NCBI GenBank assembly: GCA_046052625.1
Contig: JBJOMA010000294.1
Span: 1 to 33,226, forward strand
Source of the DNA: Bacteroidota bacterium
GTDB lineage: Bacteria > Bacteroidota > Bacteroidia > AKYH767-A > 2013-40CM-41-45
Direction: 5' to 3'
Length of the DNA stretch: 33,226 nt
Part shown: in pieces, positions 169 through 21,910 of the stretch
Layout: each line of letters starts with the position of its first letter
Position numbering within the stretch: position 1 is the stretch's first letter
The notes under the pieces: generated by a model
What the model was told of the DNA's origin: nothing
What the model saw: the letters and a program-made list of their open reading frames with translations, nothing else
Database searches by the model: none
Made by a program: the position numbers and the translations under genes

Positions 169-1848
169 TTATTCTATCACCAGTTTCCCGGAACGAGCGA
201 CCCGGCTGCCCTTTTCGCGGAGCACGTAGAAATAGACACCATGTGACAATGAACGCAGATCCACTTCATCACCTGAATTCACCAGATCGATGTCATAGAC
301 CAGACGACCTGCAGGATCGGTGATCCGCAAATCAAAACTGGTCATGGATCTGCTCAGTATGCGGATCCGTCCGCTGGACGGATTCGGTACCACATGGACC
401 GGCGGAAGCGATGAGGGGTCTTGGATCCCGACGCCGTTGTCTACAACCGTGATGGTTTGGACCGCTGTATCCGAAAAGCAGGCTTCATCGCTGAAAACGA
501 CCATTGTGACGGTATAAACACCGGGGGTGGCATAGAAGTGGACGGTATCAAACAACGAGTACCCGGAAGTGCCGTCACCGAAATCCCAGAAGGTACTGGA
601 GCTGCCCAGACTGTAATTATCGAAGATGATTACGGTAGAAGTGTCGGGGGAACTGAAGAACTGGGCGGTCGGCGGACCGATGACGCGGATCGTCACATTG
701 GTACTGGTCGTCTGACTGGGAGTACCGTTATCCGTGCCCTGAAACTGGATGTTATGAAAGCCGGTGTTGTTTATGGTACCGTTTACATGGATCGACGCAG
801 AACCGATCGGTCCTGACACCTGGCTGGTAACCGTCACATCCTGCATGCTGCCGAAATTGACGGAAGGAGTGATCTGTTGGCTGGGTTCCGGACCGAGGAA
901 GGAGACGGAAACATCTGCTGAATCGCCCATGCAAAGAACAATGGTGTCGCAAGCAGACAAGGAGCTCACGACCGGTGCAATATTGAAGTTGCTGACACAG
1001 GTGTTGAAGAAGAAAGCCTGGTTGTCCAGAAAACTGACACCGTCCGGATTTCCACCAGGTCCGTCATAGGTCGAACCGGCCTGGTCGAACCGGCCCATCT
1101 GTATGTAATTGATGCCGTTTCCCTGATTCACACCGACCGTCGCGGGAATTCCACCGAAACCTCCTACTCCTTGGGAAGCGGAACCGGTGGTCCACTGCAT
1201 GTCCTTGTAACAGAAACCGACATTATATCCTGAAGGCAAAAGGGGATCCAGTCCGTCTGTGATGATCAACTGAAACGCGTTACGCTTGTCGTCCTGTGCA
1301 TTAAAATATCCCACCGAATCCCATTGAACGATCAGGTGGGAATTGGTCAGTTCGTAATAGACCAATCCGCTGTTCGGTCCGCGGGTATCGACATCCGCCC
1401 AGAACGGTGCAACCATCACGAAGTTGGTGTTAGGGAAAGAGTCTGCACTATAGGTGGAATAGGAAGTTCCGAAGGAGACATTTCCATTGTTATTGATGAA
1501 CAGCTTACGAAGATACGTACCGTAAAAACAGAAGGGCGAAATCAGACTGATCGTATCCGTCGAACCGTCATCGTTACGATATTCCGGAGGCGTACCATTG
1601 GTGAAGGGAGCTACTTGCCAGGCACGGTCACGTTCCACCCAGCAATCGCAGGAGGAGATGGTGCGCGTAGCGCCGGTAGGGCTGATGATGATTTCTGAAC
1701 GATCACCGTTCCGCTTGGGAAGCGACTCGTTCAGGTCTTTACCGTTGAATAGCGGTTGCTGACCGGTTCCGTCGACACTCTGTGCAACGGACACGACTGC
1801 GATGAACTCCAGCAATGAAAGGAGAATCAGGCGTAAGTTTTTCTTCAT
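169..1848 (-). CDS. T9SS-secreted protein: signal peptide, NIDO-like domain, Ig-like region, PKD domain, Por/T9SS C-terminal sorting domain
   Basis: - Signal peptide: MKKNLRLILLSLLEFIAVVSVAQS.
- NIDO-like segment: FCFYGTYLRKLFINNNGNVSFG...FVMVAPFWADVDTRG...GLVYYE...IVQWDSVGYF...RNAFQLIITDG.
- PKD signature: FWDFGDGTSG...TPGVYTVTMVV.
- CTD: VVPNPSSGRIRIL...HGVYFYVL.
- ATG start at 1848. Confidence 0.85.
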   Translation of the reverse strand: MKKNLRLILLSLLEFIAVVSVAQSVDGTGQQPLFNGKDLNESLPKRNGDRSEIIISPTGATRTISSCDCWVERDRAWQVAPFTNGTPPEYRNDDGSTDTISLISPFCFYGTYLRKLFINNNGNVSFGTSYSTYSADSFPNTNFVMVAPFWADVDTRGPNSGLVYYELTNSHLIVQWDSVGYFNAQDDKRNAFQLIITDGLDPLLPSGYNVGFCYKDMQWTTGSASQGVGGFGGIPATVGVNQGNGINYIQMGRFDQAGSTYDGPGGNPDGVSFLDNQAFFFNTCVSNFNIAPVVSSLSACDTIVLCMGDSADVSVSFLGPEPSQQITPSVNFGSMQDVTVTSQVSGPIGSASIHVNGTINNTGFHNIQFQGTDNGTPSQTTSTNVTIRVIGPPTAQFFSSPDTSTVIIFDNYSLGSSSTFWDFGDGTSGYSLFDTVHFYATPGVYTVTMVVFSDEACFSDTAVQTITVVDNGVGIQDPSSLPPVHVVPNPSSGRIRILSRSMTSFDLRITDPAGRLVYDIDLVNSGDEVDLRSLSHGVYFYVLREKGSRVARSGKLVIE

Positions 1849-1998: not shown

Positions 1999-4479
1999 AT
2001 GGACAAATTGCCTATACATGATGTGATTCCTGCCCTTAAAAAGGCACTCGTGGAAGAGAACACCGCCGTTTTACAGGCACCACCGGGGGCGGGGAAAAGT
2101 ACTGTGCTTCCGTTACACCTGCTGGAGGAACCATGGCTGAATGGTAAAAAGATCCTGATGCTGGAGCCCAGACGTCTTGCGGCGAAAGCCGTAGCCTGGA
2201 GGTTGGCAGAGCAGCTCGGCGAAGAGCCCGGCGATACCGTCGGATACAGGATCCGTTTTGAAAACAGGATTGGTAAATCGACACGGATTGAAATCGTCAC
2301 GGAAGGTATCCTGACACGCATGTTGCAAGTCGATAACGCGCTGGAGGGTATCGGGCTGGTCATTTTCGATGAGTTCCACGAAAGAAGCATTCACTCGGAT
2401 CTCGCCTTTGCCCTTTCTCGCGAAGCGCAATCCGTACTCCGGAACGACCTGCGCTTATTGGTCATGTCTGCCACACTGGATACTGATGAGCTGATGCGCG
2501 TTTTAAACAACCCTCCGCTCATCGCGAGCGAAGGTCGCCAATTCCCGGTGACCTACAGGTACCATGAACCGGACAGGGACGCAACACTCGCCCAGAACGT
2601 CTGCCGATTGGTGTTGAAAGCGTTCCGGGAAGAACCGGAAGGCGACCTCCTCGCCTTTCTCCCCGGCAGCGGCGATATTCTTCGTGCTGCCGATCTTTTG
2701 GAAGAATCGGGTATCAATGCGGTCGTCCATCCGCTGTTCGGTGACCTGCCTCACGATGAGCAGCAAAATGCATTGCAGCCGGACCGGAACGGGCGAAGAA
2801 AAATCGTACTGGCCACTTCCATCGCTGAAACGAGTCTGACCATCGAAGGAATCCGGGTGGTCGTTGACAGCGGTTATTCCAGAATACCCCGCTTTGATCT
2901 GAATACCGGACTCTCCCGGTTGGAATCCGTACGATCGACTCGTGACACAGCTGACCAGCGGGCCGGCCGTGCAGGCCGTCTCGGCCCCGGCGTCTGCTAC
3001 CGCATGTGGCCGGAAAGCACACATCATCAACTTGGAGCACAGCGCAAACCGGAAATACTGCAAACAGATCTTGCAAGGCTCACCCTTGAATTGGCCGGAT
3101 GGGGACATGCCGATCCGGGTGGAATGATATGGGTCACTCCGCCACCCGCTTCCGCAATAGCTCAAGCGCGTGAATTGCTCGTGTCACTCGGAGCAGTTGC
3201 AGACGGACGTATCACTCCCGATGGCAAAGCGATGCTCGAACTTCCTACGCATCCGCGTATCGCACACCTGCTACTATACGGGAAAAACAACGGGCTCGGA
3301 GCGCTTGCAGCGGACACTGCCGCGCTCTTGGAAGAACGTGACCCCTTGAAACAGGAAGCCGGCAGCGACCTCGTCCTCCGCATCGAAGCGCTCCGTCGTT
3401 GGCGAAAAAAAGAACGTGTCAATGTCGACCGTGGAGCACTGGAACGGATCGACCGCATCGCCCGACAATGGCGGAAGTCGCTCGGTATCGTTTTCGATTC
3501 CGGCGAATCGGGTACCGACGAAACAGGAGCGCTGATCGCCGCTGCATATCCGGAGCGCATCGCACGCGACGAAGACGGTCGAGGGAGGTACCGAATGGCA
3601 AACGGTCGAGCAGCACGGTTGCAAGAACACGATCCGTTGACACATGCCGACTGGATCGCGATTGCACAGTTGGATGCCGGGACAAAAGAGGGAAGAGTCT
3701 TCCTCGCAGCATCCTATGACCCGCAGGCGCTGATCCGTAATACCTCCCCCGTGGAAACCATCAGTTGGGACAACAAGAACGGCACCGTGATCGCCCGTAA
3801 AGAATGGCGGATCGGCAGCCTGGTGGCACGTGAAGAGCCGATTCAAAAACCTTCGCAGGAGAAAGTGGCCGGCGTCGTGTGCGACTTCATCGCCGGCGAA
3901 GGACTTCATGTCTTCGACCGGACGGAATCGAGCGAGCAGCTGCAGGCACGCGTTGAGTCGCTGCGGAAATGGCGGCCGGAATCGGATTTCCCGAACTTCT
4001 CGGATGACGGCCTGAGCGCAACTGCTACACTGTGGGCTGCACCTTATTGTGGCAGCATCCGACGGAAAGAAGACCTGAAGAAAATCGACCTGTTCTCCGT
4101 GCTGCATTCATTCCTATCCTGGGAGCAACAACGGCAATTGGATGAGTGGCTTCCTGAGAAACTGGAAGTGCCCAGCGGTTCGAAAATAACCATCCGCTAT
4201 TCACCGGAAGGTGCAACGCCCATCCTTGCCGTCCGGCTGCAGGAAGTGTTCGGCATGACCGAATCACCGACAGTCAACGATGGACGCTCCCGGCTCATGC
4301 TTCATTTGCTGTCTCCGGGATACAAACCGGTTCAGGTCACACAAGACCTGAAAAGTTTCTGGCATAACACCTATCACGAAGTCCGCAAGGAACTGCGCAT
4401 CCGTTATCCGAAACACTCCTGGCCGGAAGACCCGTGGACAGCAGTTGCTGTCCGAGGCGCCGTGAAAAGGAGATCCTGA
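1999..4479 (+). CDS. hrpB: ATP-dependent RNA helicase HrpB (DEAH-box)
   Basis: Walker A LQAPPGAGKST, DEFH box VIFDEFHERS, SAT motif, QRAGRAGR motif VI, and a long HrpB-type C-terminal region. The track ORF opens at a TTG (1978). The ATG at 1999 (MDKLPIHDVIPAL...) fits HrpB N-termini better. Confidence 0.9.
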   Translation: MDKLPIHDVIPALKKALVEENTAVLQAPPGAGKSTVLPLHLLEEPWLNGKKILMLEPRRLAAKAVAWRLAEQLGEEPGDTVGYRIRFENRIGKSTRIEIVTEGILTRMLQVDNALEGIGLVIFDEFHERSIHSDLAFALSREAQSVLRNDLRLLVMSATLDTDELMRVLNNPPLIASEGRQFPVTYRYHEPDRDATLAQNVCRLVLKAFREEPEGDLLAFLPGSGDILRAADLLEESGINAVVHPLFGDLPHDEQQNALQPDRNGRRKIVLATSIAETSLTIEGIRVVVDSGYSRIPRFDLNTGLSRLESVRSTRDTADQRAGRAGRLGPGVCYRMWPESTHHQLGAQRKPEILQTDLARLTLELAGWGHADPGGMIWVTPPPASAIAQARELLVSLGAVADGRITPDGKAMLELPTHPRIAHLLLYGKNNGLGALAADTAALLEERDPLKQEAGSDLVLRIEALRRWRKKERVNVDRGALERIDRIARQWRKSLGIVFDSGESGTDETGALIAAAYPERIARDEDGRGRYRMANGRAARLQEHDPLTHADWIAIAQLDAGTKEGRVFLAASYDPQALIRNTSPVETISWDNKNGTVIARKEWRIGSLVAREEPIQKPSQEKVAGVVCDFIAGEGLHVFDRTESSEQLQARVESLRKWRPESDFPNFSDDGLSATATLWAAPYCGSIRRKEDLKKIDLFSVLHSFLSWEQQRQLDEWLPEKLEVPSGSKITIRYSPEGATPILAVRLQEVFGMTESPTVNDGRSRLMLHLLSPGYKPVQVTQDLKSFWHNTYHEVRKELRIRYPKHSWPEDPWTAVAVRGAVKRRS

Positions 4480-7400
4480 TCACTGAACGATGATCCGCTG
4501 AAGGCTGCGAACACCGGCTCCCTCTGCAGTCAGGAAATACAAACCGGGGGCGACTCCTTCCAGATCGATCATCAGAGAAGTTTCCGTTTGCAGAAGCTGC
4601 ACGGTTTCGCCGTACACCTGACGACCGGAAAGGTCTGTGACCATCAAGCGCATTTCAGAATGACGCTGTCCGCGGATGGCAACTGTGAAGCGACCCGGAT
4701 TCGGATTCGGGAACACAGTGATGCCCGGATGAACGGCCATCGGTCCGTCGACCGGCAACGAGAAGTTGACCGTGAACTGGTAGTTGATATTGTCACCGAA
4801 ATCGGGATTGAAGGTCTTCAGGATCGTGCCGGAAGATGCCGAACGAATCCGCAGATATCCGGTCCCTTGATTGGTATTGGCCCAGAAGCTCAAACCGTCA
4901 TCGCCTGAATCGTTCATGTACAACTTGTAACAACCCGCGGTCAGATTCAACGTGTCCCGGTAAATGACACCGCCGACCGTAGGAGCCCGGTTCAACAAAA
5001 CGTTGCCTTGCTCGTCACGGACAGAATAGGTGTTCTGTGTAATGAGGTTATTGGGACGGTATTCGAGGACAATCCTTCCATAATACGTATCAGGAATGAG
5101 AAAGTCGGTGGAAAGCGTATCGTTAGGTGCATACCCGTCGGCGCCTCCATTAGGATTGGAGACGCTGACCTGGAAGCGGTCGATACCGGAACCGATCCAG
5201 GCAGGCGCCGGAAGTACGACTTCTTCGGTCTGAAGAAACGTCAGGCTTCCAGTCCAGTGATAGCTGCTTAAAGTTCCACCTACTCTTCCGTAGGTGATGT
5301 CCAGCGATGTCAATGTATCTGAACCGGAATTGCGGATCACGATGACCGGATCGTCACAGATCGGATTGAAGCGCAGGTACTCGCTCCTTAAAGAAGGCGA
5401 CTTGATGACATGTACCGCCGCATCCGTCTGGAAATTGGGCGGTCCGTAACTGACGAGGGTGTTGTTAACGCGGTAATTGGAGGTGCCGGGATTGGCTATG
5501 AACGGCATCGTGTATTCGGCTGTTACGGTCTGACCGGGTGTCACATACGGCGTGAGCTCCAGCTCGGCGAGGTCGACGTTCTTTCCCGGGCACCAGCCGG
5601 CACGGTCATAGACCCACGTTCCGCCTTGTGGAAAGATCGGATTGGTAGCGCATTCCGTCCACACGCTTCGGGTGAAATCGATGATGCCTGCCAGAGAGAC
5701 CGTATGGTTACGCGCGATGAACTCTCCTTCCTGTCCGTGACCGCTGATCGAGGAGCGGATCTTATACATGGAAGAGCCCGGATCCAGGATGATATCGCGC
5801 GGCTCGAAATAAACGTTGTTATAGATCTGACTCCACGACGGTGACACCCATCCGCCGTTCGGCCAGATCTGCGTCACTGAACGCACGGTACGCGGCGGAA
5901 TCCCTTCGTAGAAAATGAACTTGATATCGTTCTCCTCGCTGTTACGACCGGCACCGTTCATGGACAGGTACTTTCCGCCTTTTAGGACAGGAGCGAAATC
6001 GGTGACGTCGAAATCCCAGTACTTGCCGTTCAATCCGTCCAGGTCAAGATTTATCCCATAGGGTGTAATGAAATCGATGAGCTCGAAATTCATCGGCCGC
6101 TTCTGGTAGTAATTCAATGTCTGCTGTACGAGGGAATCCGTGGCTGCAATCAAGGCTGAGTCGCTAACGGTACCGTCGTAAGCATAGGTGTAGGAATATC
6201 CGCCGGCCGGCCAGACCAGCAACGTATCGGTCGTCACCAGCGTATTGGCATTCACGTCGTATTCGATGACCCGTAGCGGTGAGCGCAAAAGGGAATCAGG
6301 AACATGATAAGTCTGGACGGTGGAGGTATATACGCCCTGAAGGAACGTCACATCCGGGCGATAAGTGGTTGCAGTGAAATCACTGAAAAGATCTTTTCCC
6401 TTTCGGGAGCGCCAGACCGGGTTGATGATATCCGCGGTTGCTGCGGAAGCACCCCGGTCGAAGGTGACAGTGCCGACGCCTTCATTGAAAGAATAGTATT
6501 GGACCAGCCGCGCATAATCGGGATGAGCAGGTGTGACGGTGCGGTACAAGAGCGCTGCAATCGCGGTCGAATCGAGCTCCTTGTTCCAAATTGAAAACTC
6601 ATCGATGCGGCCACGGTATTGCATGTTATTCGGTCCTGCACCGATGGTGTAGTTTTTCAGATTGACCGGGATGGTCTTGCCGGTACCGGATTGGATCACA
6701 TGACCGTCCATCCATATTTTCATCTCGCCGGTCGTCGTGTTCTTGGTGAACGTCCAATACGTCCAGCGGCCTTCGAAGTCGGCAGGAACCACCGATACGG
6801 AAATGCGATCGTAAGTACCACCGGCACCTCCGCAGTCCCAGTAGACCTTCGAATCGGACCAGGGAAGGTGAACGTTCAATTGCCGACCGTTGCCGTTGTC
6901 CGTGCCGTAGGCGATGCTGGTATTCGATGGTAGCAGGCTCGTATCCCCATATGCCCAGAAACCGACGGTGACCTGGTCGGAGATTTGCGAAAGCCCGTTG
7001 GTGTCCGGCAGTAGGACGGAGTTGGTGACTTCCAGATAACCGTTTGCTGAATCCGTGATCAGTCCGGCAACGAACCCGGCATCGTGCCCCTCGGTGGAAT
7101 CATTCGAAGAGCCGGAAGGAAGGGTATAGCTCAAATCCAGTAGGAGATTGGAGGTGCCGTTCCAGGTGAACGGCTGATGGAAGTTGAACTGCTTGGTTCC
7201 TGTCGTCGGAACCGGGGTGTCAAGGAAATAGACTTCCTGGAATCCGTCGGTCGAAGGTAATTCGGGAGAAAGTACACTGTCTGTGGCAGGACGCAGGCGG
7301 ATACGCAGATCCTGCAGGTCGTTGGATGCCGTTAATACTTCCAGCCGCAGACCGGTGATATCACCGGCGACCAAGCCGGAAGCGGTTAGTTCTGAAGCAG

Positions 7401-7932
7401 TCCAAAGGTATTGAGCACGTTGCACGGACGTGGATCCGCCAAGCGGATGTGCCACCGGCGTAGTACCGTTGGCCGGTTGTGCCGTCGTCTCGGAGATCAC
7501 GGAGGTATAGGTGACTTCCTGTTGAAGATTGTCAAACCGGTCGTAGACCGGCGCTGACGAATAGTAGAAGACAGACGACGTATTGCCGGCAATCGCGTAC
7601 TTGTTTTGTGATGCGGGCAAGGAATCTGTCTGGGAGGAATCGATGACAGAGGTATAGCAATTGTAATCCCATTCACCGCAACCGAGGTTACGGTTGGAAG
7701 TGGTGGAAATCAGTCCGCCTTTGCAGCGCATCCCGTAGCGCATGATGATCTTCTCGTAGGTTTTCGAAGAATCGTCCGGGAAGATGAAATACCCGGAGCG
7801 CAGGGTGGTATCATAGCGAAGTGTCTGGACGACGGTGGTATCGCCGACTCCGGCCAAGACCGACCGGGGACCGGGAAGAAAAAATCCAACGACAGTAAAG
7901 AGTACGAACAGGAAGGAAAGGAATCGGGTCAC
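4480..7932 (-). CDS. Large T9SS-secreted protein with PNGase F-like segments, a LamG/concanavalin-like domain and a T9SS C-terminal domain
   Basis: - GTG start followed by a signal peptide (MTRFLSFLFVLFTVVGFF).
- PNGase F-like strings: GCGEWDYNCYTSV, IDFITPYGINL...FDVTDF, SSISGHGQEGEF, GTWVYDRAGWCPG.
- LamG string: RWTYWTFTK...MKIWMDGHVI...YRGRIDEFSIWNKELDSTAI.
- CTD: VFPNPNPGRFTV...PGLYFLT. Confidence 0.85.
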   Translation of the reverse strand: MTRFLSFLFVLFTVVGFFLPGPRSVLAGVGDTTVVQTLRYDTTLRSGYFIFPDDSSKTYEKIIMRYGMRCKGGLISTTSNRNLGCGEWDYNCYTSVIDSSQTDSLPASQNKYAIAGNTSSVFYYSSAPVYDRFDNLQQEVTYTSVISETTAQPANGTTPVAHPLGGSTSVQRAQYLWTASELTASGLVAGDITGLRLEVLTASNDLQDLRIRLRPATDSVLSPELPSTDGFQEVYFLDTPVPTTGTKQFNFHQPFTWNGTSNLLLDLSYTLPSGSSNDSTEGHDAGFVAGLITDSANGYLEVTNSVLLPDTNGLSQISDQVTVGFWAYGDTSLLPSNTSIAYGTDNGNGRQLNVHLPWSDSKVYWDCGGAGGTYDRISVSVVPADFEGRWTYWTFTKNTTTGEMKIWMDGHVIQSGTGKTIPVNLKNYTIGAGPNNMQYRGRIDEFSIWNKELDSTAIAALLYRTVTPAHPDYARLVQYYSFNEGVGTVTFDRGASAATADIINPVWRSRKGKDLFSDFTATTYRPDVTFLQGVYTSTVQTYHVPDSLLRSPLRVIEYDVNANTLVTTDTLLVWPAGGYSYTYAYDGTVSDSALIAATDSLVQQTLNYYQKRPMNFELIDFITPYGINLDLDGLNGKYWDFDVTDFAPVLKGGKYLSMNGAGRNSEENDIKFIFYEGIPPRTVRSVTQIWPNGGWVSPSWSQIYNNVYFEPRDIILDPGSSMYKIRSSISGHGQEGEFIARNHTVSLAGIIDFTRSVWTECATNPIFPQGGTWVYDRAGWCPGKNVDLAELELTPYVTPGQTVTAEYTMPFIANPGTSNYRVNNTLVSYGPPNFQTDAAVHVIKSPSLRSEYLRFNPICDDPVIVIRNSGSDTLTSLDITYGRVGGTLSSYHWTGSLTFLQTEEVVLPAPAWIGSGIDRFQVSVSNPNGGADGYAPNDTLSTDFLIPDTYYGRIVLEYRPNNLITQNTYSVRDEQGNVLLNRAPTVGGVIYRDTLNLTAGCYKLYMNDSGDDGLSFWANTNQGTGYLRIRSASSGTILKTFNPDFGDNINYQFTVNFSLPVDGPMAVHPGITVFPNPNPGRFTVAIRGQRHSEMRLMVTDLSGRQVYGETVQLLQTETSLMIDLEGVAPGLYFLTAEGAGVRSLQRIIVQ

Positions 7933-14627: not shown

Positions 14628-17045
14628 TTATCGTGCGATCACGAAGGACGCACGTACCTGGCGGTCTTCGGCAGTCAGTGTCAGATGATAGACGCCGTTC
14701 GGAAGTCCTGATACGTCGATACGTCCGTTACGGCCGCGCAGTTCGATCGGGTTCATACTGACGATCCGACCGAAAGCATCGGATACGGTGCAAGTCGTTT
14801 TGCCGGTAAAGTCAGACATGGCGACTACGCGCAGTTCTCCGGAAGCAGGATTCGGGTAGACGGCTGAGAAGGTTTCAACCGTTGCATCCGAAACGCCGTT
14901 GATCAGCTGCTGGAAAGGTATCACGGTACCGTCTGTCAGGGCTGCATACAAACCGAAAGCGGAACCGTTCTGGTTTGCAGAAGGAGTGAGGAAGCCGGAA
15001 GCGAAAACGACAGCAGACTGTCCGCCGAGCGTGGTCAGATCAGCGGTATACTCCAGCAATACAGGTGTACCGGCAGCAGGCGTGATACCGATCGTATAAC
15101 TGGCTGCGGGTACGTTCAGGTAACCGGTCGCATCCGTGTAAGCTGCATTGTCAGCAAGGGTGATCGTATTGTTGGCAAGAACGTCTACCGTGGGCGCGTC
15201 CGTACATCCGTGAACAATGAAGAAGTCCACTTCACCGGCTACTGCAGCCTGCTCACGAACGTTCTCTTTCACGATGAACTGGAAAGCCGTTGAACGTCCG
15301 TCCGGATTCGCGGCATACTGCGCCGGATCCGTAACCCCGTTGGCAAGGATGATATAGGTCTGTCCGGGTGTGAGATTGAGCGTCGTGCCGAGACCTGCGA
15401 TGGTGTCTGCAGCGGAAGTGGAGTTCGCCAGCGCGATACCGATCTGGATGGGTTGACCGGCCGGAACTTCGACAAACGGTGTTGCGGTGCGATACGCGAA
15501 GCCGGGAATCAACAGGACAGCGCCTGCATAGACGTCTACTGAATCAGCGATGACATCGGCAGCATTGTGGATGACTTGAACACGTGCGGAGTTGTGAGCC
15601 GGAAGTTCGATGACACTGCCGTCAGCGAATGCGGCGAAGAGGCCGAATGCGGAACCACCGTTGTTAGCGGCCGGATTCAGGAATCCTGACGCGAACAGGA
15701 CGGCGGAAGCTCCGCCGGCAGCCGTAAGGTCCGCATCATAAGAAGCGAGGATTACGTTATTGAAGCTCGAAGGCGTGACGTTCAGGACATACGCATTGGC
15801 TCCTACGGTAAGCGTACTGCTGAATTCGCCATAGGTAAGACCGTCGATCAACGGGGTGGCGACGCTTTGTAGCAATACATCGACCGTCAACGCGTCGGTG
15901 GCTCCGTGCAGGGCGGTGAGGTCCACGGTTCCGGAGGAGGCGCTGGCCGTCGTCATACCGCTACGCAACCAAAGGTTGAAGGCGATGGATTGGCTGCTAG
16001 GGTTCACAGAGAATGCGGTGGTATCAAGGACACCGTTGGCGACCGCTACGTAGGTCTGTCCCGGCTGCAAAGTAACAGTGAAACTGGTGATGGTATCTGC
16101 TACCGAGGTGCTGGTCCCGGGAGCTACTGCGATGTTCAAAGGGGCACCGGCAGGCACTTCGATATATGGTGTGGCCTGACGGAAAACGAAATCGTCCAGC
16201 AAAAGGCTTCCGTCCGCATAGATGTCCACAGTATCGGCTGCAGGATCAGCAGCATTATGAATGACCTGCAATAATGCATTGGTGTTCTCCGGGAGCTGAA
16301 TGACTGCGCCACTCGGCAAGGCTGCAAAAAGACCGAATGCAGCGCCGTTCTGGTTTGTGGAAGGGTCCAGGAAGCCGCTGGCGAAAACTACTGCCGAGCC
16401 TCCGCCGAGACCTGTCAGGTCAGCGATGTAAGAAGCAAGGATGTTGCTGTTATCATTTCCGGGTGTGAGGTTGAGCGAAAGGCTGGTCGCAGGCAGATTG
16501 AGATACGCGGAAAAGTCGCGGAAGGCTGCATTATCGACAGCCGGCGTGCTGGTTCCGACAGGTACCACGTCAACGGTGGGTGCATCGGTGGAACCGTGCA
16601 TGACGATGATGTCGACATTGTTGGTGTCAGCCGAAGCGGGACTGATATTGTCCTGCACAACAAGGTCGAACGCGATGCTTCGTCCATCCGGATTGGCCGC
16701 ATAGCTGACAGTATCCAGTACGCCGGTGGCCATGACCACATAGCGGTGTCCGGACTGAAGTGTCAAGTTGAAGTTAGCGATGACATCCGCTACGCTCGTA
16801 CTGGTGGAGGGAGCGATACCGACCTGATATGGCAATGCTGCCGGTAGCGAAATGAAATTCGTCGCTGTACGGAATGCGAAATCATCGAGGGTGAGAGCGC
16901 CGTTGACATAAATGTCGACTAGCTGCGCATTGGTGTCCGCACAGTTATGGATGACCTGGACGTCGGCATTCTGGGCACGAAGCCGTGATGCTGTGGAGAC
17001 GAAAATCGCTCCGGCAATAAAAAAACTAAGTAGGATACGTTTCAT
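14628..17045 (-). CDS. T9SS-secreted protein built from repeated DUF4397-like domains
   Basis: - The ATG at 17045 gives signal peptide MKRILLSFFIAGAIFVSTASRLRAQ (track ORF opens 16 codons earlier).
- Repeated VQVIHNxAD...VDIYxxG and VDxxxxHGxTDAPTVDV modules.
- CTD: VYPNPASGELRVV...NGVYHLTL. Confidence 0.8.
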   Translation of the reverse strand: MKRILLSFFIAGAIFVSTASRLRAQNADVQVIHNCADTNAQLVDIYVNGALTLDDFAFRTATNFISLPAALPYQVGIAPSTSTSVADVIANFNLTLQSGHRYVVMATGVLDTVSYAANPDGRSIAFDLVVQDNISPASADTNNVDIIVMHGSTDAPTVDVVPVGTSTPAVDNAAFRDFSAYLNLPATSLSLNLTPGNDNSNILASYIADLTGLGGGSAVVFASGFLDPSTNQNGAAFGLFAALPSGAVIQLPENTNALLQVIHNAADPAADTVDIYADGSLLLDDFVFRQATPYIEVPAGAPLNIAVAPGTSTSVADTITSFTVTLQPGQTYVAVANGVLDTTAFSVNPSSQSIAFNLWLRSGMTTASASSGTVDLTALHGATDALTVDVLLQSVATPLIDGLTYGEFSSTLTVGANAYVLNVTPSSFNNVILASYDADLTAAGGASAVLFASGFLNPAANNGGSAFGLFAAFADGSVIELPAHNSARVQVIHNAADVIADSVDVYAGAVLLIPGFAYRTATPFVEVPAGQPIQIGIALANSTSAADTIAGLGTTLNLTPGQTYIILANGVTDPAQYAANPDGRSTAFQFIVKENVREQAAVAGEVDFFIVHGCTDAPTVDVLANNTITLADNAAYTDATGYLNVPAASYTIGITPAAGTPVLLEYTADLTTLGGQSAVVFASGFLTPSANQNGSAFGLYAALTDGTVIPFQQLINGVSDATVETFSAVYPNPASGELRVVAMSDFTGKTTCTVSDAFGRIVSMNPIELRGRNGRIDVSGLPNGVYHLTLTAEDRQVRASFVIAR
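14898..16967 (-). repeat. Three in-frame tandem copies of a 230-codon (690-bp) unit inside the DUF4397-repeat gene
   Basis: Unit starts at residues 43, 273 and 503 of the track ORF (ADVQVIHNCAD / ALLQVIHNAAD / ARVQVIHNAAD). Each unit ends in SGFLxPxxNxxGxAFGLxAA. The spacing is exactly 230 residues. Confidence 0.8.
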
Positions 17046-17169
17046 GGATATAGATGCGTTTGGTTTGTAGAAAGAACAAGATGGTCGACGCAAAGTTCAG
17101 ATTAGACGAAAAAAAACCTTTATTACGCCTTTTGCAGAACAATTAGCGAGCAAGTGTGTTAAATGACCT

Positions 17170-18471: not shown

Positions 18472-21400
18472 TCAGAACTTGACGATCTTCTGGACCGTGT
18501 GCTGACCGTCCACCGTCAGACGAACGGTATAGATACCTGCGTTCTTACCCTCGAAAGAATAAGTATGTGTACCGCCGTTCTGCTTTTCAGCGACTGCGAA
18601 CGATTGTACTTTCTCACCGAGCGCATTGAATACTTCCAGCGAAACGGTAGCGGAAGCGTTCAGACGATATTCGACACGAGTAGTAGAGGCAAAAGGATTC
18701 GGGAATACATTGAACGGAATATTCAATGAAGCCTCTTCCACTCCGACCGGCATGGAGACCAAGATGGAGTAATCCTCCACCTGTCCGTACTGGAGGTTCA
18801 GGCACGGAGCAGGGACCGGGTTGGCAGAATAATCCGATGCGATACGGAAACGGAGCGGCTGTCCGACGACTGCGTTGCCGGGAACGGTGATCGTTCCTGA
18901 GTGATACGTCAAAATCTGCTGGCCGACGTCTGAGAAGACCTGCTCGGTTGCAGGGTCAAGCTGGGTATCCGCGTTCCAGTCGATCCAGGCGATTACGTTC
19001 TCCGGATAGGTGAAGCCGGTTTCTGCAGTGAGCGAATAGCTCTGTCCGCGGACCAGTGTCGTCGTATCGGAACAGGTATAGTTCTGATAACCGTCGATGG
19101 CGTCATTGGAGGCGTTGTTGATGTTAGCGACCGTGACATTCGTAAGGCCGATACCGCAGCAATACTGAGAAGTAAGCGGGTAACAGGTGGTCGGCTGCGG
19201 GCCGGTGATAATGGCCTGCAGGGACTGGATCACGGTGTCACAACCGGCACCGTTACAGGCGATCAGGGTGACCGTGTAGTTGCCGTTCTGCGAATAGTAG
19301 TGCGTAGGGCTGGCAGAGGTCGCAGCAGCAGAACCGTCGCCGAAGTCCCAGGAATACGTGTTCGGAGTATTGATGGCCGTACTGGTGAAGTCGGTCTGAC
19401 CGGTACACGTATTCGACTGATAGGTGAAGTTCATACAGGGGTTCGTACCTACAATGAACGAAATGGCCACCTGGACCGACGGCGTGCGCGGGTCGTTGGA
19501 GACGACGTTTATGTTCGCAGTATAGGTACCGCCCGCCAAGGTTCCGCTGTTGAAGGTTAGCGTCACTGTCTGACTGCCCGCGGGGTTGACGGTGTCTCCG
19601 CTGGTTGTATAGGTGAGCCATGCAGGAAGACCGGTGACGGAATACGTCAGGTCGCTACCGCCGAGGTTCTCAACCAGGAAGGTCTGTGTAGCCGTATTGC
19701 CGCAGGCAGGTGTCGTGGCGGAAACAGTAGCAGGGTTGGCGTTCACATCCGGGGCGGGGAATACGTTGACGGAGAGGCAGACGCTGGTGTCGATATCACT
19801 GTTGTTCACCGAGATGGTGCCGCTGAAGGTACCGGTCGTATTGGAAACGAACGTGATATTCACGACGCCATGAGCACCGGGAACGAGGTAGGTGAACGGG
19901 GCGTTGACAACGAACTGCGGGTTGTTGGAGAGGATGCCGGTGACGAACAGGGTATCACAACCGTTGTTGATCACATCGAAAGAGCGGGTCTCCGGACGGT
20001 ACTGCATCACGCTGCCGAAGTCGACACAGGTGTCGGACAAGGCAACGATCGGATCGCCGGTGATGGTCAGCGTACAAGGGACGAGAACCACCGGGTTAGT
20101 CATGTCGTTATTGGCGACCGGGATGGCGGAGATGTAGGTTCCTGCAGGAAGGCCGGTGGTCTGGAAGGTGACCGTCACGTGAGAGGTATCGCCGGCATTC
20201 AGGGTGTCATTTGTCTGACTGAGTGAAATCCAGGTAGGCAGACCGTTGATTCCGCCCCATTGGATGGCATTCGCAAGGATCTGAGAAGATTCGTTGGTCG
20301 GGTCGAAATAGTCGAACGCGAGGAAGATGGCCTTGCCACTGCCGTAATCAAGCCAGGTGACGACATCCGTTCCCTGATCGGCAACGACTGTATGTTTGTT
20401 GGTATTCGTGATGTCCATCGTGTAGGTGGCGCTCGGTCCGGTAAACGTCGTAGGGACGTTCTGCGCGAGCGGATGAGCCGGGTCTACAACGGTCAGGTTA
20501 TTCTGGACCGCATCGGAATTGTATGTGCCGGAGAAGATGCCGACACTGGTAATGCAGGATACCTGCGAGGAGAAGGCGCCGCAGAAGATGACGGATCCGC
20601 CGTTGTTCACATAGTTCTGGATCACCGGAGCGAGGTTGGTCCAGACCGTGGGGCTGCCGAATTCCTGCTCAGGAATCAACAACACGTTAGTGCCGAAGAG
20701 CAAAGACGAGAGCGTCGCAGGATTGGTAGTGGACGTCTGTGTCAGCACATAGTTTGAGAAATACGGACCGAAGGCGTTGATGGTGCTGGGATATTCAGAG
20801 AACTGGTCCGTACCGTATTTCATCGAAAGGACGCGGACCGGGAGGCCGGTGCTTACGTCCACGTCACTGGTCCAGAAAAGTTCACCGCCCGCCAGGTTGG
20901 TCACATCCATCTGATAGGTGGCAGTATCTCCGCAATAGGCGTTAGCGACGATGGAATCCGGATCGACATTGATCTGCGGAGCAGCTTGTACGGTTACAGA
21001 AAGGTAGGCAGTATCCGACTCCGTGCATGAGAACGCTACGAACATGATGTTGTAGGTGCCGGGCGTGGAATACGCATGCAGCGGGTTCTGAGCACGGGAG
21101 GTGTCACCATCACCGAAATCCCACAACCATCCCGTCGGATTGCCGAGGCTGCTGTCAGAGAATTGGACATTGGTATTAAGCGGCGGTGTAACGTCGTTGA
21201 CAGCACAGGCAGCAGTAGGGGCTACAGAGGCGGCGATGACCGACGACCAGCTGCACTGGAATCCGTCGTTCACAATCGACACGTCAGAGCGCCAGATGAT
21301 CAGCATGGAACCGGAGGTACAGGTGACCGGACCGGGCAACGTGGTTCCGTTCGCATTCAGCAGCTGCGGAGCAGCGACAGTGGTACCGTCATAAACACGG

Positions 21401-21663
21401 AAGAAGTCGAAGTTGGCCTCCGTTGCGAAAGACTGGAACACGAGGGTGATGGAAACCGCGCAAGACGGCTGTACCAACAGCGTGCAGTTTTCGTTGTTCT
21501 GGTACTGACCGGTAGGACCGCCCGTATCGTACAGGGTTCCGGTCGAGTCGGTTGTCGCATTTCCGGGAATCGAACAGATCGTGTACGTCCCTTGTGCTTT
21601 TGCGGCTTGGCCGGCCAACAACAAGGTCACGACAGCCAATGCATTGAGTAATAATCTTTTCAT
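18472..21663 (-). CDS. Large T9SS-secreted multidomain protein: CUB-like, PKD x2, Ig-like/choice-of-anchor-D-like repeats, GEVED, T9SS CTD
   Basis: - The ATG at 21663 gives signal peptide MKRLLLNALAVVTLLLAGQAAKAQ.
- CUB-like: GTLYDTGGPTGQYQNNENCTLLV...ITLVFQSFATEANFDFFRVYDG...IIWRSDVSIVNDGFQCSW.
- PKD: WLWDFGDGDTS and YSWDFGDGSAA.
- GEVED: QYGQVEDYSILV.
- CTD: VFPNPFASTTRVEY...AGIYTVRL. Confidence 0.85.
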   Translation of the reverse strand: MKRLLLNALAVVTLLLAGQAAKAQGTYTICSIPGNATTDSTGTLYDTGGPTGQYQNNENCTLLVQPSCAVSITLVFQSFATEANFDFFRVYDGTTVAAPQLLNANGTTLPGPVTCTSGSMLIIWRSDVSIVNDGFQCSWSSVIAASVAPTAACAVNDVTPPLNTNVQFSDSSLGNPTGWLWDFGDGDTSRAQNPLHAYSTPGTYNIMFVAFSCTESDTAYLSVTVQAAPQINVDPDSIVANAYCGDTATYQMDVTNLAGGELFWTSDVDVSTGLPVRVLSMKYGTDQFSEYPSTINAFGPYFSNYVLTQTSTTNPATLSSLLFGTNVLLIPEQEFGSPTVWTNLAPVIQNYVNNGGSVIFCGAFSSQVSCITSVGIFSGTYNSDAVQNNLTVVDPAHPLAQNVPTTFTGPSATYTMDITNTNKHTVVADQGTDVVTWLDYGSGKAIFLAFDYFDPTNESSQILANAIQWGGINGLPTWISLSQTNDTLNAGDTSHVTVTFQTTGLPAGTYISAIPVANNDMTNPVVLVPCTLTITGDPIVALSDTCVDFGSVMQYRPETRSFDVINNGCDTLFVTGILSNNPQFVVNAPFTYLVPGAHGVVNITFVSNTTGTFSGTISVNNSDIDTSVCLSVNVFPAPDVNANPATVSATTPACGNTATQTFLVENLGGSDLTYSVTGLPAWLTYTTSGDTVNPAGSQTVTLTFNSGTLAGGTYTANINVVSNDPRTPSVQVAISFIVGTNPCMNFTYQSNTCTGQTDFTSTAINTPNTYSWDFGDGSAAATSASPTHYYSQNGNYTVTLIACNGAGCDTVIQSLQAIITGPQPTTCYPLTSQYCCGIGLTNVTVANINNASNDAIDGYQNYTCSDTTTLVRGQSYSLTAETGFTYPENVIAWIDWNADTQLDPATEQVFSDVGQQILTYHSGTITVPGNAVVGQPLRFRIASDYSANPVPAPCLNLQYGQVEDYSILVSMPVGVEEASLNIPFNVFPNPFASTTRVEYRLNASATVSLEVFNALGEKVQSFAVAEKQNGGTHTYSFEGKNAGIYTVRLTVDGQHTVQKIVKF

Positions 21664-21910
21664 GATAAACGGAATTTCTGGTGGTGGATACTGGTCAAAT
21701 TTAGGACTAAAATGGATATTAATCAATGAATGGGCAAGATAAGTGGGTGTTGATATAAAATACTGATTATCTATACTTTAAGTGTGTTTTCAACAGCAGA
21801 ATTCCTTTTTCGGGAAACGGCTTAAAAGAAATAAAAACGCATTTTTACTTCAGGTATGGATCTACCCAAACAACCCATCAGGGGTTCATTTTTTCATCTT
21901 CAATACAGAT

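What the first reader, a model, noticed from the sequence alone, without database searches (positions are those of the whole stretch)
4480..7932. PNGase F-like fold apparently split by a nested insertion of about 520 aa that includes a LamG domain
**Comparison (from memory).** I compared against my memory of the Elizabethkingia PNGase F sequence. The protein matches the first strands of the N-domain: FIFPDD...KIIMRYGMRC...GCGEWDYNCYTSV versus FTFPAD...KMFIKNECP..CDEWDRYANVYV. This includes the catalytic Asp of EWD.

**Insertion.** The protein then diverges for about 520 residues (about 6088..7644). That stretch contains an unassigned beta-rich region and a LamG/concanavalin-like domain.

**Resumption.** Similarity resumes in register:
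- NFELIDFITPYG...FDVTDF versus WYEIGRFITPYW...IDVTDF
- SSISGHGQEGEF versus TTISGWGH...CAEW, carrying the second catalytic Glu
- GTWVYDRAGWCPG versus GNWAPDRAGWCPG

**Interpretation.** A domain-in-loop architecture on a deglycosylating scaffold, exported by T9SS, would be unusual. It may re-target the enzyme to a particular glycoconjugate.
Basis: partly seen in the sequence, partly recalled or inferred. Interest (0 to 1): 0.6.

Follow-up and report, generated by a model that had tools for sequence, protein, structure and literature searches.

The report
PNGase F enzyme split by insertion
This gene encodes a secreted bacterial enzyme of the PNGase F family (which cuts N-linked sugars off proteins) whose catalytic fold is interrupted by a 516-residue stalk carrying a lectin-like lobe, an uncharacterised design shared by hundreds of uncultured Bacteroidota species.

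Summary
Window 4480..7932 (minus strand) encodes a 1150-aa type IX secretion (T9SS) cargo protein. Residues 29-96 and 613-835 together form a PNGase F-like double jelly roll, and residues 97-612 are inserted in the beta4-beta5 hairpin of the N-terminal jelly roll.

Evidence:
- A profile with the insert cut out aligns to PNGase F residues 50-300 in one stretch (E 4e-25).
- Relatives without the insert exist, including a paralogue in the same genome.
- The N-terminal piece is as conserved as the rest of the core.
- My own covariation analysis (242 sequences) pairs the N-terminal strands with the C-terminal strands as a jelly roll requires. It shows no coupling to the insert.

The insert has two tiers: a beta-ribbon stalk (97-151 and 528-612) carrying a rigid beta-sandwich plus LamG lobe (152-527). 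One marine lineage has secondarily lost residues 134-533.

Catalytic Asp60, Glu206 and Arg248 equivalents are invariant. The Glu118, Arg61 and Trp191 equivalents are not kept. Activity is inferred, not shown.

The family occurs in at least 572 species genomes, carries only generic names, and I found no paper describing the insert. This scan noted the same design before on other DNA (e1-1394805). I class it as a new variant of a known kind, of moderate interest.

The parts
4480..7932 (-). Whole gene, 1150 codons plus stop. GTG start at 7932.
7849..7932 (-). Residues 1-28: hydrophobic N-terminal signal-peptide-like segment.
   Evidence: Sequence. AF2 gives helix 2-18 followed by a low-pLDDT linker. 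The region is not conserved in the family. No signal-peptide predictor was run.
7645..7848 (-). Residues 29-96: first half of the N-terminal jelly roll (strands beta1-beta4, or B-E). Includes C70-C85 and the motif GCGEWDY.
7666..7668 (-). Codon of Asp89, the equivalent of the catalytic Asp60 of PNGase F.
   Evidence: Alignment. Invariant in 76 of 76 sequences. Codon checked.
7480..7644 (-). Residues 97-151: ascending half of the beta-ribbon stalk (long strands 91-110 and 130-151).
   Evidence: AF2 secondary structure. Covariation ladders 92-112 with 601-622 and 129-156 with 527-550.
7033..7479 (-). Residues 152-300: first domain of the distal lobe. An Ig-like beta-sandwich with no Pfam match.
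6352..7032 (-). Residues 301-527: LamG/pentraxin-like jelly-roll domain of the distal lobe. The Pfam Laminin_G_3 match covers 303-459.
6097..6351 (-). Residues 528-612: descending half of the stalk (long strand 528-549, small beta-meander 553-602, start of strand 605-622).
5893..6096 (-). Residues 613-680: second half of the N-terminal jelly roll (strands beta5-beta8, or F-I). Contains FITPYG and the invariant E666 and D669.
5428..5892 (-). Residues 681-835: C-terminal jelly roll of the PNGase F fold. Contains GHGQEGEF, DRAGWCPG and C761-C781.
5722..5724 (-). Codon of Glu737, the equivalent of the catalytic Glu206 of PNGase F.
5602..5604 (-). Codon of Arg777, the equivalent of Arg248 of PNGase F.
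4729..5427 (-). Residues 836-1068: two further beta-sandwich domains. The insert-free sister groups P0141 and P0155 share them.
   Evidence: AF2 strands. Only a weak Big_9 hit. Alignment.
4483..4728 (-). Residues 1069-1150: T9SS type A C-terminal sorting domain.
   Evidence: PF18962 scores 37.4 bits. TIGR04183 scores 35.4 bits against a cut-off of 23.

Best explanation
**What it is.** The gene encodes a T9SS-exported enzyme of the PNGase F family, a peptide-N4-(N-acetyl-beta-glucosaminyl)asparagine amidase. Its catalytic double jelly roll is built from two pieces of chain that lie far apart, residues 29-96 and 613-835.

**The insert.** The beta4-beta5 hairpin of the N-terminal jelly roll has been drawn out into a two-tier antiparallel beta-ribbon stalk (97-151 going up, 528-612 coming down). 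The tip of the stalk carries a rigid two-domain lobe (152-527): an Ig-like beta-sandwich followed by a LamG/pentraxin-like domain.

**Geometry.** Asp89 sits at the start of beta4 and Tyr625 at the end of beta5. The insertion point is therefore at the pole of the barrel opposite the catalytic cleft. The lobe is a separate module held away from the active site.

**Most likely mechanism.** Asp89 and Glu737, with Arg777, hydrolyse the GlcNAc-Asn amide bond of N-glycoproteins in the environment. The lobe acts as a built-in binding module for a glycan or other ligand that tethers the enzyme to its substrate. The same genome exports many other T9SS cargoes, including an M36 protease.

**Shown here.** The split fold, the insertion point, the two-tier insert, the conservation of the catalytic residues, the T9SS tail and the family distribution.

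**Inferred.** Catalytic activity (probability about 0.6), ligand binding by the lobe (about 0.5) and the geometry relative to the cleft.
For: **Fold and insertion point**
- a profile of 26 family members with the insert removed aligns to PNGase F residues 50-300 as one stretch across the splice. The E-value is 4e-25 and there is a single one-residue gap at the junction.
- the N-terminal profile alone places PNGase F among the six best PDB hits, at residues 50-71.
- in relatives P0155, P0141/P0145/P0147, P0187 and P0122, in the own-genome paralogue on contig C140 and in PNGase F itself, CxEWD is separated from [FY]ITPY by 27-53 residues. In 117 family members the separation is 508-552 residues.
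- the N-terminal piece is as conserved as the rest of the core (mean top-residue frequency 0.74 against 0.73). The insert scores 0.52-0.62.

**Covariation**
- mean-field DCA on 242 sequences couples N-terminal strands to C-terminal strands on the pairs D-G, D-I, C-H, B-I and an E-F ladder.
- Of the top 30 such couplings, 22 are register-consistent. The null mean is 7.5 and the maximum in 5000 draws is 19.
- two antiparallel ladders define the stalk.
- in the top 100 couplings, pairs between the two core pieces number 17 against 6.7 expected. N-piece with LamG gives 0 against 6.8, and C-piece with LamG gives 2 against 23.

**Structure prediction**
- AF2 full-length model, mean pLDDT 87.9, with the strand order expected for the fold.
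- Foldseek match to 1png, probability 1.00, TM-score 0.60 normalised to the target.
- the lobe alone gives pLDDT 94.8 and pTM 0.90. Its best match is 4dqa (a DUF1735 + LamG3 protein), followed by the PAPP-A LamG domain and pentraxins.

**Catalytic residues and export**
- D89, E737, R777, W88, W780 and Y625 are invariant in 76 sequences sharing 39-73% identity with the query.
[quoted passage not shown] Their equivalents are essential in zebrafish Ngly2, which also carries His at chitobiose-binding positions.
- the T9SS sorting domain scores above the curated cut-offs.
Against: - No activity data exist for any member of this clade.
- The position aligned to Glu118 is variable. Arg61 is replaced by an invariant Tyr90, Trp191 by an invariant His732 and Trp207 by Phe738. 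Trp120 and the Cys204-Cys208 disulphide are absent.
- The gene is not in a polysaccharide utilisation locus, and no neighbour is conserved.
- I could not read model coordinates. The position of the lobe relative to the cleft rests on strand topology and on the absence of covariation, not on measured distances.
- The full-length model has pTM of only 0.62, so the arrangement between domains is uncertain.
- No ligand site in the LamG domain was identified.
Confidence: 0.6

Rival explanations
1. The PNGase F-like core is catalytically active on a different substrate, or is a non-catalytic binding scaffold. Under this reading the family would be an amidase or lectin for another glycoconjugate (for example bacterial, archaeal or algal glycopeptides), not a classical N-glycanase.
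For: - Three of the residues that hold chitobiose in PNGase F are changed, and are invariant in their new form: Arg61 to Tyr90, Trp191 to His732 and Trp207 to Phe738.
- The Glu118 position is variable and Trp120 is deleted.
- New invariant acidic residues E666 and D669 appear on the next strand.
- There is no N-glycan utilisation locus around the gene.
Against: - The Asp60, Glu206 and Arg248 equivalents are invariant across the family. That is hard to explain without catalysis.
- Zebrafish Ngly2 is an active PNGase although it has His at chitobiose-binding positions (PMC12753239).
- The same Tyr/His signature is already present in the insert-free sister groups.
Confidence: 0.25
2. The enzyme is an N-glycanase, but the insert is a structural spacer or cell-surface/partner-docking arm and not a substrate-binding module. 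This would resemble the spacer role proposed for DUF1735 and BACON domains.
For: - The insertion point is at the pole opposite the cleft (topology).
- No conserved lobe-core interface is seen.
- The best structural match, 4dqa, begins with DUF1735, a domain proposed to be a spacer (PMC11216935).
- A marine lineage lost residues 134-533 and kept the core.
Against: - The LamG part contains a dense block of invariant residues (350-377, NxHLPWSDSxxYWDCG...YDRI). It has more columns at 90% identity or above (18%) than the stalk (8% and 19% for its two halves) or the first lobe domain (11%). This suggests a specific site, not mere bulk.
- LamG3 domains of PUL proteins such as BT3986 bind sugars (PMC11216935).
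Confidence: 0.3
3. Residues 29-96 are an independent small domain unrelated to PNGase F, and the protein merely has an N-terminally truncated PNGase F fold after a run of tandem domains.
For: - The N-terminal profile alone does not reach significance against PNGase F (E 2.5-4.5).
- Pfam N-glycanase_N does not hit the native sequence.
Against: - The alignment runs across the junction.
- Insert-free relatives share up to 48% identity over both pieces.
- N-glycanase_N hits 15 of 26 spliced sequences.
- The two pieces are equally conserved.
- Covariation reproduces the jelly-roll strand pairing.
Confidence: 0.02
4. The architecture is an assembly or gene-calling artefact of a metagenome-assembled genome.
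For: The genome is a fragmented MAG: 338 contigs, 82% complete.
Against: - The same uninterrupted architecture of about 1150 aa occurs in at least 572 species-representative genomes, including complete chromosomes.
- It was found in 25 of 397 high-quality genomes sampled across the phylum.
- It forms more than 100 clusters at 50% identity.
Confidence: 0.01

Closest known systems
PNGase F of Elizabethkingia meningoseptica (PDB 1PNG, 1PNF, 1PGS, 3PMS; Pfam PF09112 + PF09113)
   Same: - Two side-by-side eight-stranded jelly rolls.
- The motifs CxEWD, FITPY, DRAGWCPG and RxH.
- Equivalents of Asp60, Glu206, Arg248, Trp59, Trp251 and Tyr85.
- Two of the three disulphides.
   Different: - 516 residues are inserted in the beta4-beta5 hairpin.
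- Arg61 is Tyr, Trp191 is His and Trp207 is Phe.
- The Glu118 position is not conserved, and Trp120 and Cys204-Cys208 are absent.
- Two extra C-terminal beta-sandwich domains and a T9SS tail are present.
- Identity over the core is about 23-24%.
PNGase F type II (PDB 4R4X, 4R4Z), the Bacteroides fragilis putative PNGase F (3KS7) and the plant/insect-active PNGase 7ZGN
   Same: PNGase F cores decorated with extra structure. All are found by the spliced profile or by Foldseek.
   Different: - Type II carries its extra N-terminal bowl-like domain in tandem, before the core.
- 3KS7 has only a beta-hairpin of about 60 aa after strand F' (PMC8812541).
- Neither has a multi-domain insert inside the N-terminal jelly roll.
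T9SS-secreted PNGases PNGaseL (Flavobacterium akiainvivens) and PNGaseDo (Draconibacterium orientale), bioRxiv 10.1101/2025.05.27.656428
   Same: Bacteroidota PNGase F-family enzymes with accessory beta-sheet modules and a C-terminal T9SS signal.
   Different: - Their accessory modules are described as N- or C-terminal to the catalytic module, not nested in it.
- I could not compare sequences, because none were available to me.
Zebrafish Ngly2 (PDB 9LWG; PMC12753239)
   Same: - PNGase F-type core, found by the spliced profile (E 1.8e-9) and by Foldseek.
- Catalytic Asp and Glu are essential.
- His replaces chitobiose-binding residues, as His732 does here.
   Different: - A eukaryotic lysosomal enzyme.
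- Its thioredoxin-like and protease-associated domains are arranged in tandem before the core.
- It has no insert.
DUF1735 + LamG3 surface glycan-binding proteins of Bacteroides PULs (BACOVA_03559, PDB 4DQA; BT3986 of the high-mannose N-glycan PUL), PMC11216935
   Same: - An Ig-like beta-sandwich followed by a LamG3 domain, in the same order as the distal lobe.
- 4DQA is the best Foldseek match of the lobe: E 7e-11, 384 aligned columns, TM 0.44-0.47.
   Different: - 11% identity.
- Pfam DUF1735 does not hit the first lobe domain.
- The orientation between the two domains differs (rmsd 14 A).
- Those proteins are free-standing lipoproteins that work beside a separate GH18 endoglycosidase. Here the unit sits inside the deglycosylating enzyme.
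Own-genome paralogue on contig C140 (L001 1021..3234)
   Same: A PNGase F core with a LamG domain and a T9SS tail, in the same organism.
   Different: The LamG and Ig-like domains lie in tandem before a contiguous core (CGPWDRVASIDAQAHDGRWFEIIRYITPYG). It is the conventional beads-on-a-string solution.

Membership tests
PNGase F family (Pfam PF09112/PF09113, clan CL0612) | Match to N-glycanase_C (PF09113) above the curated cut-off. | tested here: met
   37.6 bits against a cut-off of 25, residues 724-810. All 26 spliced family members match, best E 1.2e-16.
PNGase F family (Pfam PF09112/PF09113, clan CL0612) | Match to N-glycanase_N (PF09112). | tested here: inconclusive
   No hit on the native sequence. 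After removal of the insert, 15 of 26 members hit at E <= 1, best 7.8e-4. A profile search against PDB nevertheless aligns PNGase F 50-137 in register.
PNGase F family (Pfam PF09112/PF09113, clan CL0612) | Two eight-stranded antiparallel jelly rolls side by side. | tested here: met
   - AF2 strand order.
- Foldseek to 1png: probability 1.00, TM 0.60 normalised to the target, rmsd 3.8 A over 244 columns.
- Covariation reproduces the B-I, D-I, D-G, C-H and E-F pairings of the N-terminal roll.
- Model coordinates could not be inspected.
PNGase F family (Pfam PF09112/PF09113, clan CL0612) | Catalytic Asp60 and Glu206 (PMC12753239). | tested here: met
   Asp89 and Glu737 are invariant in 76 of 76 sequences.
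PNGase F family (Pfam PF09112/PF09113, clan CL0612) | Glu118 (substrate-binding acid; from my own knowledge of the PNGase F literature). | tested here: not met
   The aligned position is a gap or Ala in the family. The neighbouring position 659 is E in 42 of 76 sequences and N in this protein. Invariant E666 and D669 lie on the adjacent strand and may substitute; that is an inference.
PNGase F family (Pfam PF09112/PF09113, clan CL0612) | Chitobiose-holding Trp59, Arg61 and Trp191 (PMC12753239). | tested here: inconclusive
   Trp88 is kept. Arg61 is an invariant Tyr90 and Trp191 an invariant His732. The active enzyme Ngly2 also carries His at such positions.
PNGase F family (Pfam PF09112/PF09113, clan CL0612) | N-glycan release from glycoproteins, with Asn converted to Asp. 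| not testable with these tools
   Needs recombinant protein and an assay.
T9SS type A cargo | C-terminal sorting domain (PF18962 / TIGR04183) plus an N-terminal signal peptide. | tested here: met
   PF18962 scores 37.4 bits against 27. TIGR04183 scores 35.4 against 23. The N-terminus is hydrophobic, but no signal-peptide predictor was run. Four other ORFs in the window have significant Por_Secre_tail matches, and a fifth, the multicopper oxidase, scores just below the cut-off (26 bits against 27).
LamG / concanavalin A-like lectin superfamily (PF13385) | Laminin_G_3 match above the cut-off, and a LamG-like fold. | tested here: met
   47.8 bits against 27.6. Foldseek matches to the PAPP-A LamG domain and to pentraxins, TM up to 0.67 normalised to the target.
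DUF1735 + LamG3 PUL glycan-binding proteins | DUF1735 sequence match, a lipoprotein signal and a PUL location. | tested here: not met
   No DUF1735 hit at E <= 10. The unit is internal to the protein, not a lipoprotein. There is no SusC/SusD context. The resemblance is structural only.

The most novel reading that the evidence does not exclude
The stalk-borne beta-sandwich + LamG lobe is a built-in counterpart of the free-standing DUF1735-LamG3 N-glycan-binding proteins of Bacteroides PULs. This clade would then be a self-contained 'bind-and-cleave' deglycosylation machine. Its altered chitobiose pocket (Tyr90, His732, no Glu118 or Trp120) would give it a substrate range that PNGase F lacks, for example native glycoproteins or protist, algal or fungal N-glycans with core modifications.
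Probability: 0.3. Interest if true: 0.65.

Novelty: new variant of a known kind. Interest (0 to 1): 0.5.

Why it matters
PNGase F is a workhorse of glycobiology, and new family members with other specificities are actively sought (bioRxiv 10.1101/2025.05.27.656428). This is a large, phylogenetically coherent and entirely uncharacterised clade. It was found in about 6% of the Bacteroidota genomes sampled and in at least 572 species genomes. Its substrate pocket is altered and it carries a built-in lectin-like lobe.

It is also a clean natural example of a two-tier nested insertion into a jelly-roll hairpin. Natural deletion variants mark the module boundaries, which gives ready-made construct designs for testing what the insert does. 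The PNGase F fold has also been discussed as a cellular double jelly roll related to viral capsid proteins (PMC8812541).

Tried and rejected
- **N-terminal profile alone against PDB.** PNGase F appears, but at E 2.5-4.5, so this is not sufficient on its own.
- **Pfam on the first lobe domain, the lobe tail/stalk and the C-terminal domains.** Nothing significant.
- **phmmer of the lobe against PDB.** Only weak pentraxin hits (E 0.12).
- **Conserved neighbours.** None beyond close relatives. A LamG protein (13 of 80 loci), an ECF sigma factor (9 of 80) and an unidentified 477-aa ORF (7 of 80) occur upstream only in subsets of loci.
- **Direct check of 3D contacts.** The structure tools return no coordinates and Foldseek gives no alignment ranges. 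I replaced this check with my own DCA. A spliced sequence may not be submitted for folding, so I did not try.
- **'Mid' class as an evolutionary intermediate.** Rejected. It nests inside the full-insert clade, and the AU test rejects a full-only clade (p 1.6e-5). It is a secondary deletion. The group was named after I had seen the tree.
- **P0122 (345 aa, insert-free, 48% identical).** It comes from a single 1451-nt Logan contig. Its placement is unresolved (AU p 0.196), so I do not rely on it.
- **P0165 (L083).** The gene breaks off after 'QQIW' and is followed by a GH13-like ORF. This is a possible chimera or rearrangement, so I did not use it.
- **Lobe-core covariation.** No interface was found. 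This is negative evidence only, at Neff of about 200.

Full report
**1. The object**

Window 4480..7932 (minus strand) is a single ORF of 1150 codons with a GTG start. Pfam finds three domains above their curated cut-offs:
- Laminin_G_3, residues 303-459
- N-glycanase_C, residues 724-810
- the T9SS sorting domain Por_Secre_tail, residues 1073-1149

NCBIfam confirms the T9SS type A tail.

**2. Similarity to PNGase F**

- *C-terminal part.* phmmer against all PDB sequences returns only PNGase F as a significant hit. Query 616-819 aligns to PNGase F 76-289 (E 1e-6). The match therefore starts in the middle of the N-terminal jelly roll, at strand beta5, and about 75 residues of that domain are missing in front of it.
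- *N-terminal part alone.* A profile of residues 28-130 from 26 family members gives six PDB hits. Three are PNGase F entries, matched at residues 50-71 (ECPNKTCDEWDRYANVYVKNKT). The E-value is only 2.5-4.5.
- *Spliced profile.* I removed residues 100-611 from the same 26 sequences. The resulting profile aligns to PNGase F residues 50-300 in one uninterrupted stretch, with a single one-residue gap at the splice (E 4e-25, 91 bits).
- *Pfam on the spliced sequences.* N-glycanase_N, silent on the native protein, hits 15 of the 26 spliced sequences.

**3. Natural controls**

I searched 5.8 billion proteins with the spliced profile. This found relatives in which the two pieces are contiguous:
- P0155: 35% identity, 99% coverage
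- P0141, P0145 and P0147
- P0187: carries both PF09112 and PF09113
- P0122: 48% identity, 99% coverage

In these proteins, and in PNGase F, the motif CxEWD is 27-53 residues from [FY]ITPY. In 117 members of the present family the distance is 508-552 residues.

The same genome also holds a conventional paralogue on contig C140. Its LamG and Ig-like domains lie in tandem before an uninterrupted core.

**4. The two pieces belong to one domain**

- *Conservation.* In a 76-sequence alignment (39-73% identity to the query), residues 31-96 are as conserved as residues 613-680. Mean top-residue frequency is 0.74 against 0.73, and 41% against 40% of columns are at least 90% conserved. The insert scores 0.52-0.62.
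- *Why I used covariation.* The structure tools give no coordinates, so I ran a mean-field direct-coupling analysis on 242 family sequences (Neff 135-210).
- *Strand pairing.* The 30 strongest couplings between residues 30-112 and 603-690 fall on these pairs:
  - D-G: 63-640, 65-640, 67-638
  - D-I: 63-675, 65-671, 57-676
  - C-H: 50-653, 46-655
  - B-I: 34-673
  - an antiparallel E-F ladder: 91-622, 95-615, 99-613, 107-610, 109-608, 111-604
  - a cluster joining loop 77-83 to residues 627-628

  These are the BIDG and CHEF sheets of a jelly roll.
- *Statistics.* 22 of the 30 pairs are register-consistent. Random draws give a mean of 7.5 and a maximum of 19 in 5000.
- *Core plus lobe.* In a joint analysis, the top 100 couplings hold 17 pairs between the two core pieces (6.7 expected at random). 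N-piece with LamG gives 0 (6.8 expected) and C-piece with LamG gives 2 (23 expected).

The N-terminal piece therefore behaves as part of the distant core and is decoupled from the insert beside it.

**5. Anatomy of the insert**

- *Full-length model.* AF2 gives mean pLDDT 87.9. It has four unusually long strands: 91-110, 130-151, 528-549 and 605-622.
- *Stalk.* Covariation shows two antiparallel ladders. One pairs 92-112 with 601-622 (i+j about 712-719). The other pairs 129-156 with 527-550 (i+j about 677-683). The two ends of the lobe, G156 and D527, are coupled. The stalk is thus a two-tier beta ribbon with a small meander at 553-602.
- *Lobe.* Modelled alone, residues 152-527 give pLDDT 94.8 and pTM 0.90, which indicates a rigid two-domain unit.
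- *Structural matches of the lobe.*
  - Best match: 4DQA (BACOVA_03559), E 7e-11 over 384 columns, TM 0.44-0.47. This is a DUF1735 + LamG3 protein from a Bacteroides PUL (PMC11216935).
  - Next: the LamG-like domain of PAPP-A, and pentraxins.
- *Sequence matches of the lobe.* The first lobe domain has no Pfam match. In a search of 1.84 billion representatives, the complete lobe occurs only inside this family, at about residues 145-525 of proteins of about 1150 aa. The LamG half alone matches repeats in giant multi-LamG proteins.

**6. Evolution**

- *Clade.* A maximum-likelihood tree of the core, with hairpin and insert excluded, puts all insert-bearing proteins in one clade (SH-aLRT 97). Insert-free groups (P0141-type, P0155, P0187) lie outside it.
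- *'Mid' class.* P0123, P0125 and P0126 lack exactly residues 134-533 but keep the base of the stalk. The two contigs I retrieved for this class (P0123 and P0125) are low-GC, come from different samples and share synteny (DUF502 upstream, a rhodanese gene nearby) with L083, a third contig of the same lineage.
- *Direction of change.* The mid class nests inside the full-insert clade. The AU test rejects a clade of full-length forms alone (p 1.6e-5). The simplest reading is one gain followed by a secondary deletion of the lobe. I named the group after seeing the tree.
- *P0122.* Whether it is an ancestral or a reduced form is unresolved (p 0.196). It rests on one short contig.

**7. Active site**

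- *Kept, invariant in 76 of 76.*
  - D89 = Asp60
  - E737 = Glu206
  - R777 = Arg248
  - W88 = Trp59
  - W780 = Trp251
  - Y625 = Tyr85
  - H743, and the cysteines of two of the three PNGase F disulphides (C70-C85, C761-C781)
- *Changed.*
  - Arg61 is an invariant Tyr90.
  - Trp191 is an invariant His732.
  - Trp207 is Phe738.
  - Trp120 and the Cys204-Cys208 loop are absent.
  - The position aligned to Glu118 is variable.
- *Possible substitute.* Invariant E666 and D669 sit on the neighbouring strand and may take over the role of Glu118. This is an inference.
- *Literature.* Asp60 and Glu206 are the accepted active site. Their equivalents are essential in zebrafish Ngly2, which is active although it has His at chitobiose-binding positions (PMC12753239).
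- *Age of the signature.* The Tyr/His signature is already present in the insert-free sister groups, so it predates the insertion.

**8. Geometry and likely role (inference)**

Asp89 lies at the start of strand beta4 and Tyr625 at the end of strand beta5. The hairpin turn that received the insert is therefore at the far end of the barrel from the catalytic cleft. Together with the absence of lobe-core covariation, this argues that the lobe does not reshape the active site. It is a separate arm.

Its LamG domain carries a dense invariant patch at residues 350-377. The beta-sandwich then LamG3 order is that of free-standing PUL glycan-binding proteins such as BT3986, which works beside the GH18 endoglycosidase BT3987 on high-mannose N-glycans (PMC11216935).

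I therefore favour a substrate-tethering module built into the deglycosylating enzyme. A pure spacer or docking role is the main alternative.

**9. Context and distribution**

- *Local context.* The gene is not in a PUL. It converges on hrpB with no intergenic base.
- *Other T9SS cargoes in the window.*
  - an M36 metallopeptidase
  - a multicopper oxidase
  - a CUB/PKD/GEVED protein
  - a DUF4397 protein
  - a NIDO/PKD protein
- *Synteny.* No neighbour is conserved across 80 related loci.
Most are MAGs labelled Saprospiraceae, Chitinophagaceae, Crocinitomicaceae, Flavobacteriales, Lentimicrobiaceae or Bacteroidales. It is also in 25 of 397 high-quality genomes and 16 of 180 genera sampled evenly across the phylum, including another class.
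- *Annotation.* Source names are generic: 'peptide-N-glycosidase F-related protein', 'LamG-like jellyroll fold domain-containing protein' and 'T9SS type A sorting domain-containing protein'.

**10. Literature and earlier notes**

Full-text searches found no description of an insert inside the PNGase F fold beyond the 60-aa hairpin of 3KS7 (PMC8812541). Recent work on diverse PNGases describes only N- or C-terminal accessory modules. The library is incomplete, so this is not proof of absence.

An earlier agent of this scan reported the same design on another genome (e1-1394805). My results agree with it. They add the two-tier anatomy, the covariation test, the secondary-deletion lineage and the tandem paralogue.

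**11. Verdict**

- Function as an N-glycanase is probable (about 0.6) but unproven.
- The role of the lobe is inferred.
- This is a new architectural variant of a known enzyme family. It is widespread but uncharacterised, and of moderate interest.

Noticed in passing
L001 1021..3234 (G000 contig C140): A second PNGase F-family gene in the same genome. It has LamG and Ig-like domains in tandem, then an uninterrupted PNGase F core, then a T9SS tail. The ORF runs off the contig at its 5' end.
   Followed up: partly
window 21972..25739 (-): A 1255-aa M36 fungalysin metallopeptidase. A PA domain (residues 459-547) lies inside the peptidase domain (258-764), and PKD and Ig-like domains follow. This is another nested-domain secreted enzyme, 14 kb from the PNGase gene.
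   Followed up: no
window 169..1848, 14628..17093, 18472..21726, 27524..30037 (all -): Four more ORFs with a T9SS sorting-domain match: NIDO/PKD, DUF4397 x5, CUB/PKD/GEVED and multicopper oxidase/fn3. The multicopper oxidase's match scores just below the cut-off (26 bits against 27). The region is unusually rich in T9SS substrates.
   Followed up: no
window 4477..4482: The hrpB stop (ORF ends at 4479) and the PNGase-gene stop (ORF ends at 4480) abut with no intergenic base.
   Followed up: partly
L083 5001..7255: In a low-GC (29%) marine assembly, the 'mid'-class gene breaks off after 'QQIW'. It is followed directly by a GH13-like ORF with a T9SS tail. This could be a chimeric contig, a rearrangement or a decaying gene.
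   Followed up: partly
L007 367..5745 and 12 further loci: In 13 of 80 related loci, a separate secreted LamG protein of about 458 aa lies just upstream of the PNGase-like gene. An ECF sigma factor is also present upstream in 9 loci and an unidentified 477-aa ORF in 7.
   Followed up: no
G249:C5:277235-280354 and similar (families f35, f40): In another class of the phylum, the homologues are about 1260-1300 aa and match only residues 24-1056. Their C-terminal end therefore differs from the type A sorting domain found here.
   Followed up: no
PNGase F residues 204-224 against family residues 79-102: The N-terminal profile around GCGEWDY also aligns weakly to the Glu206 region (GCAEWCF) of PNGase F's second jelly roll. 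This echoes the internal duplication of the two rolls.
   Followed up: no
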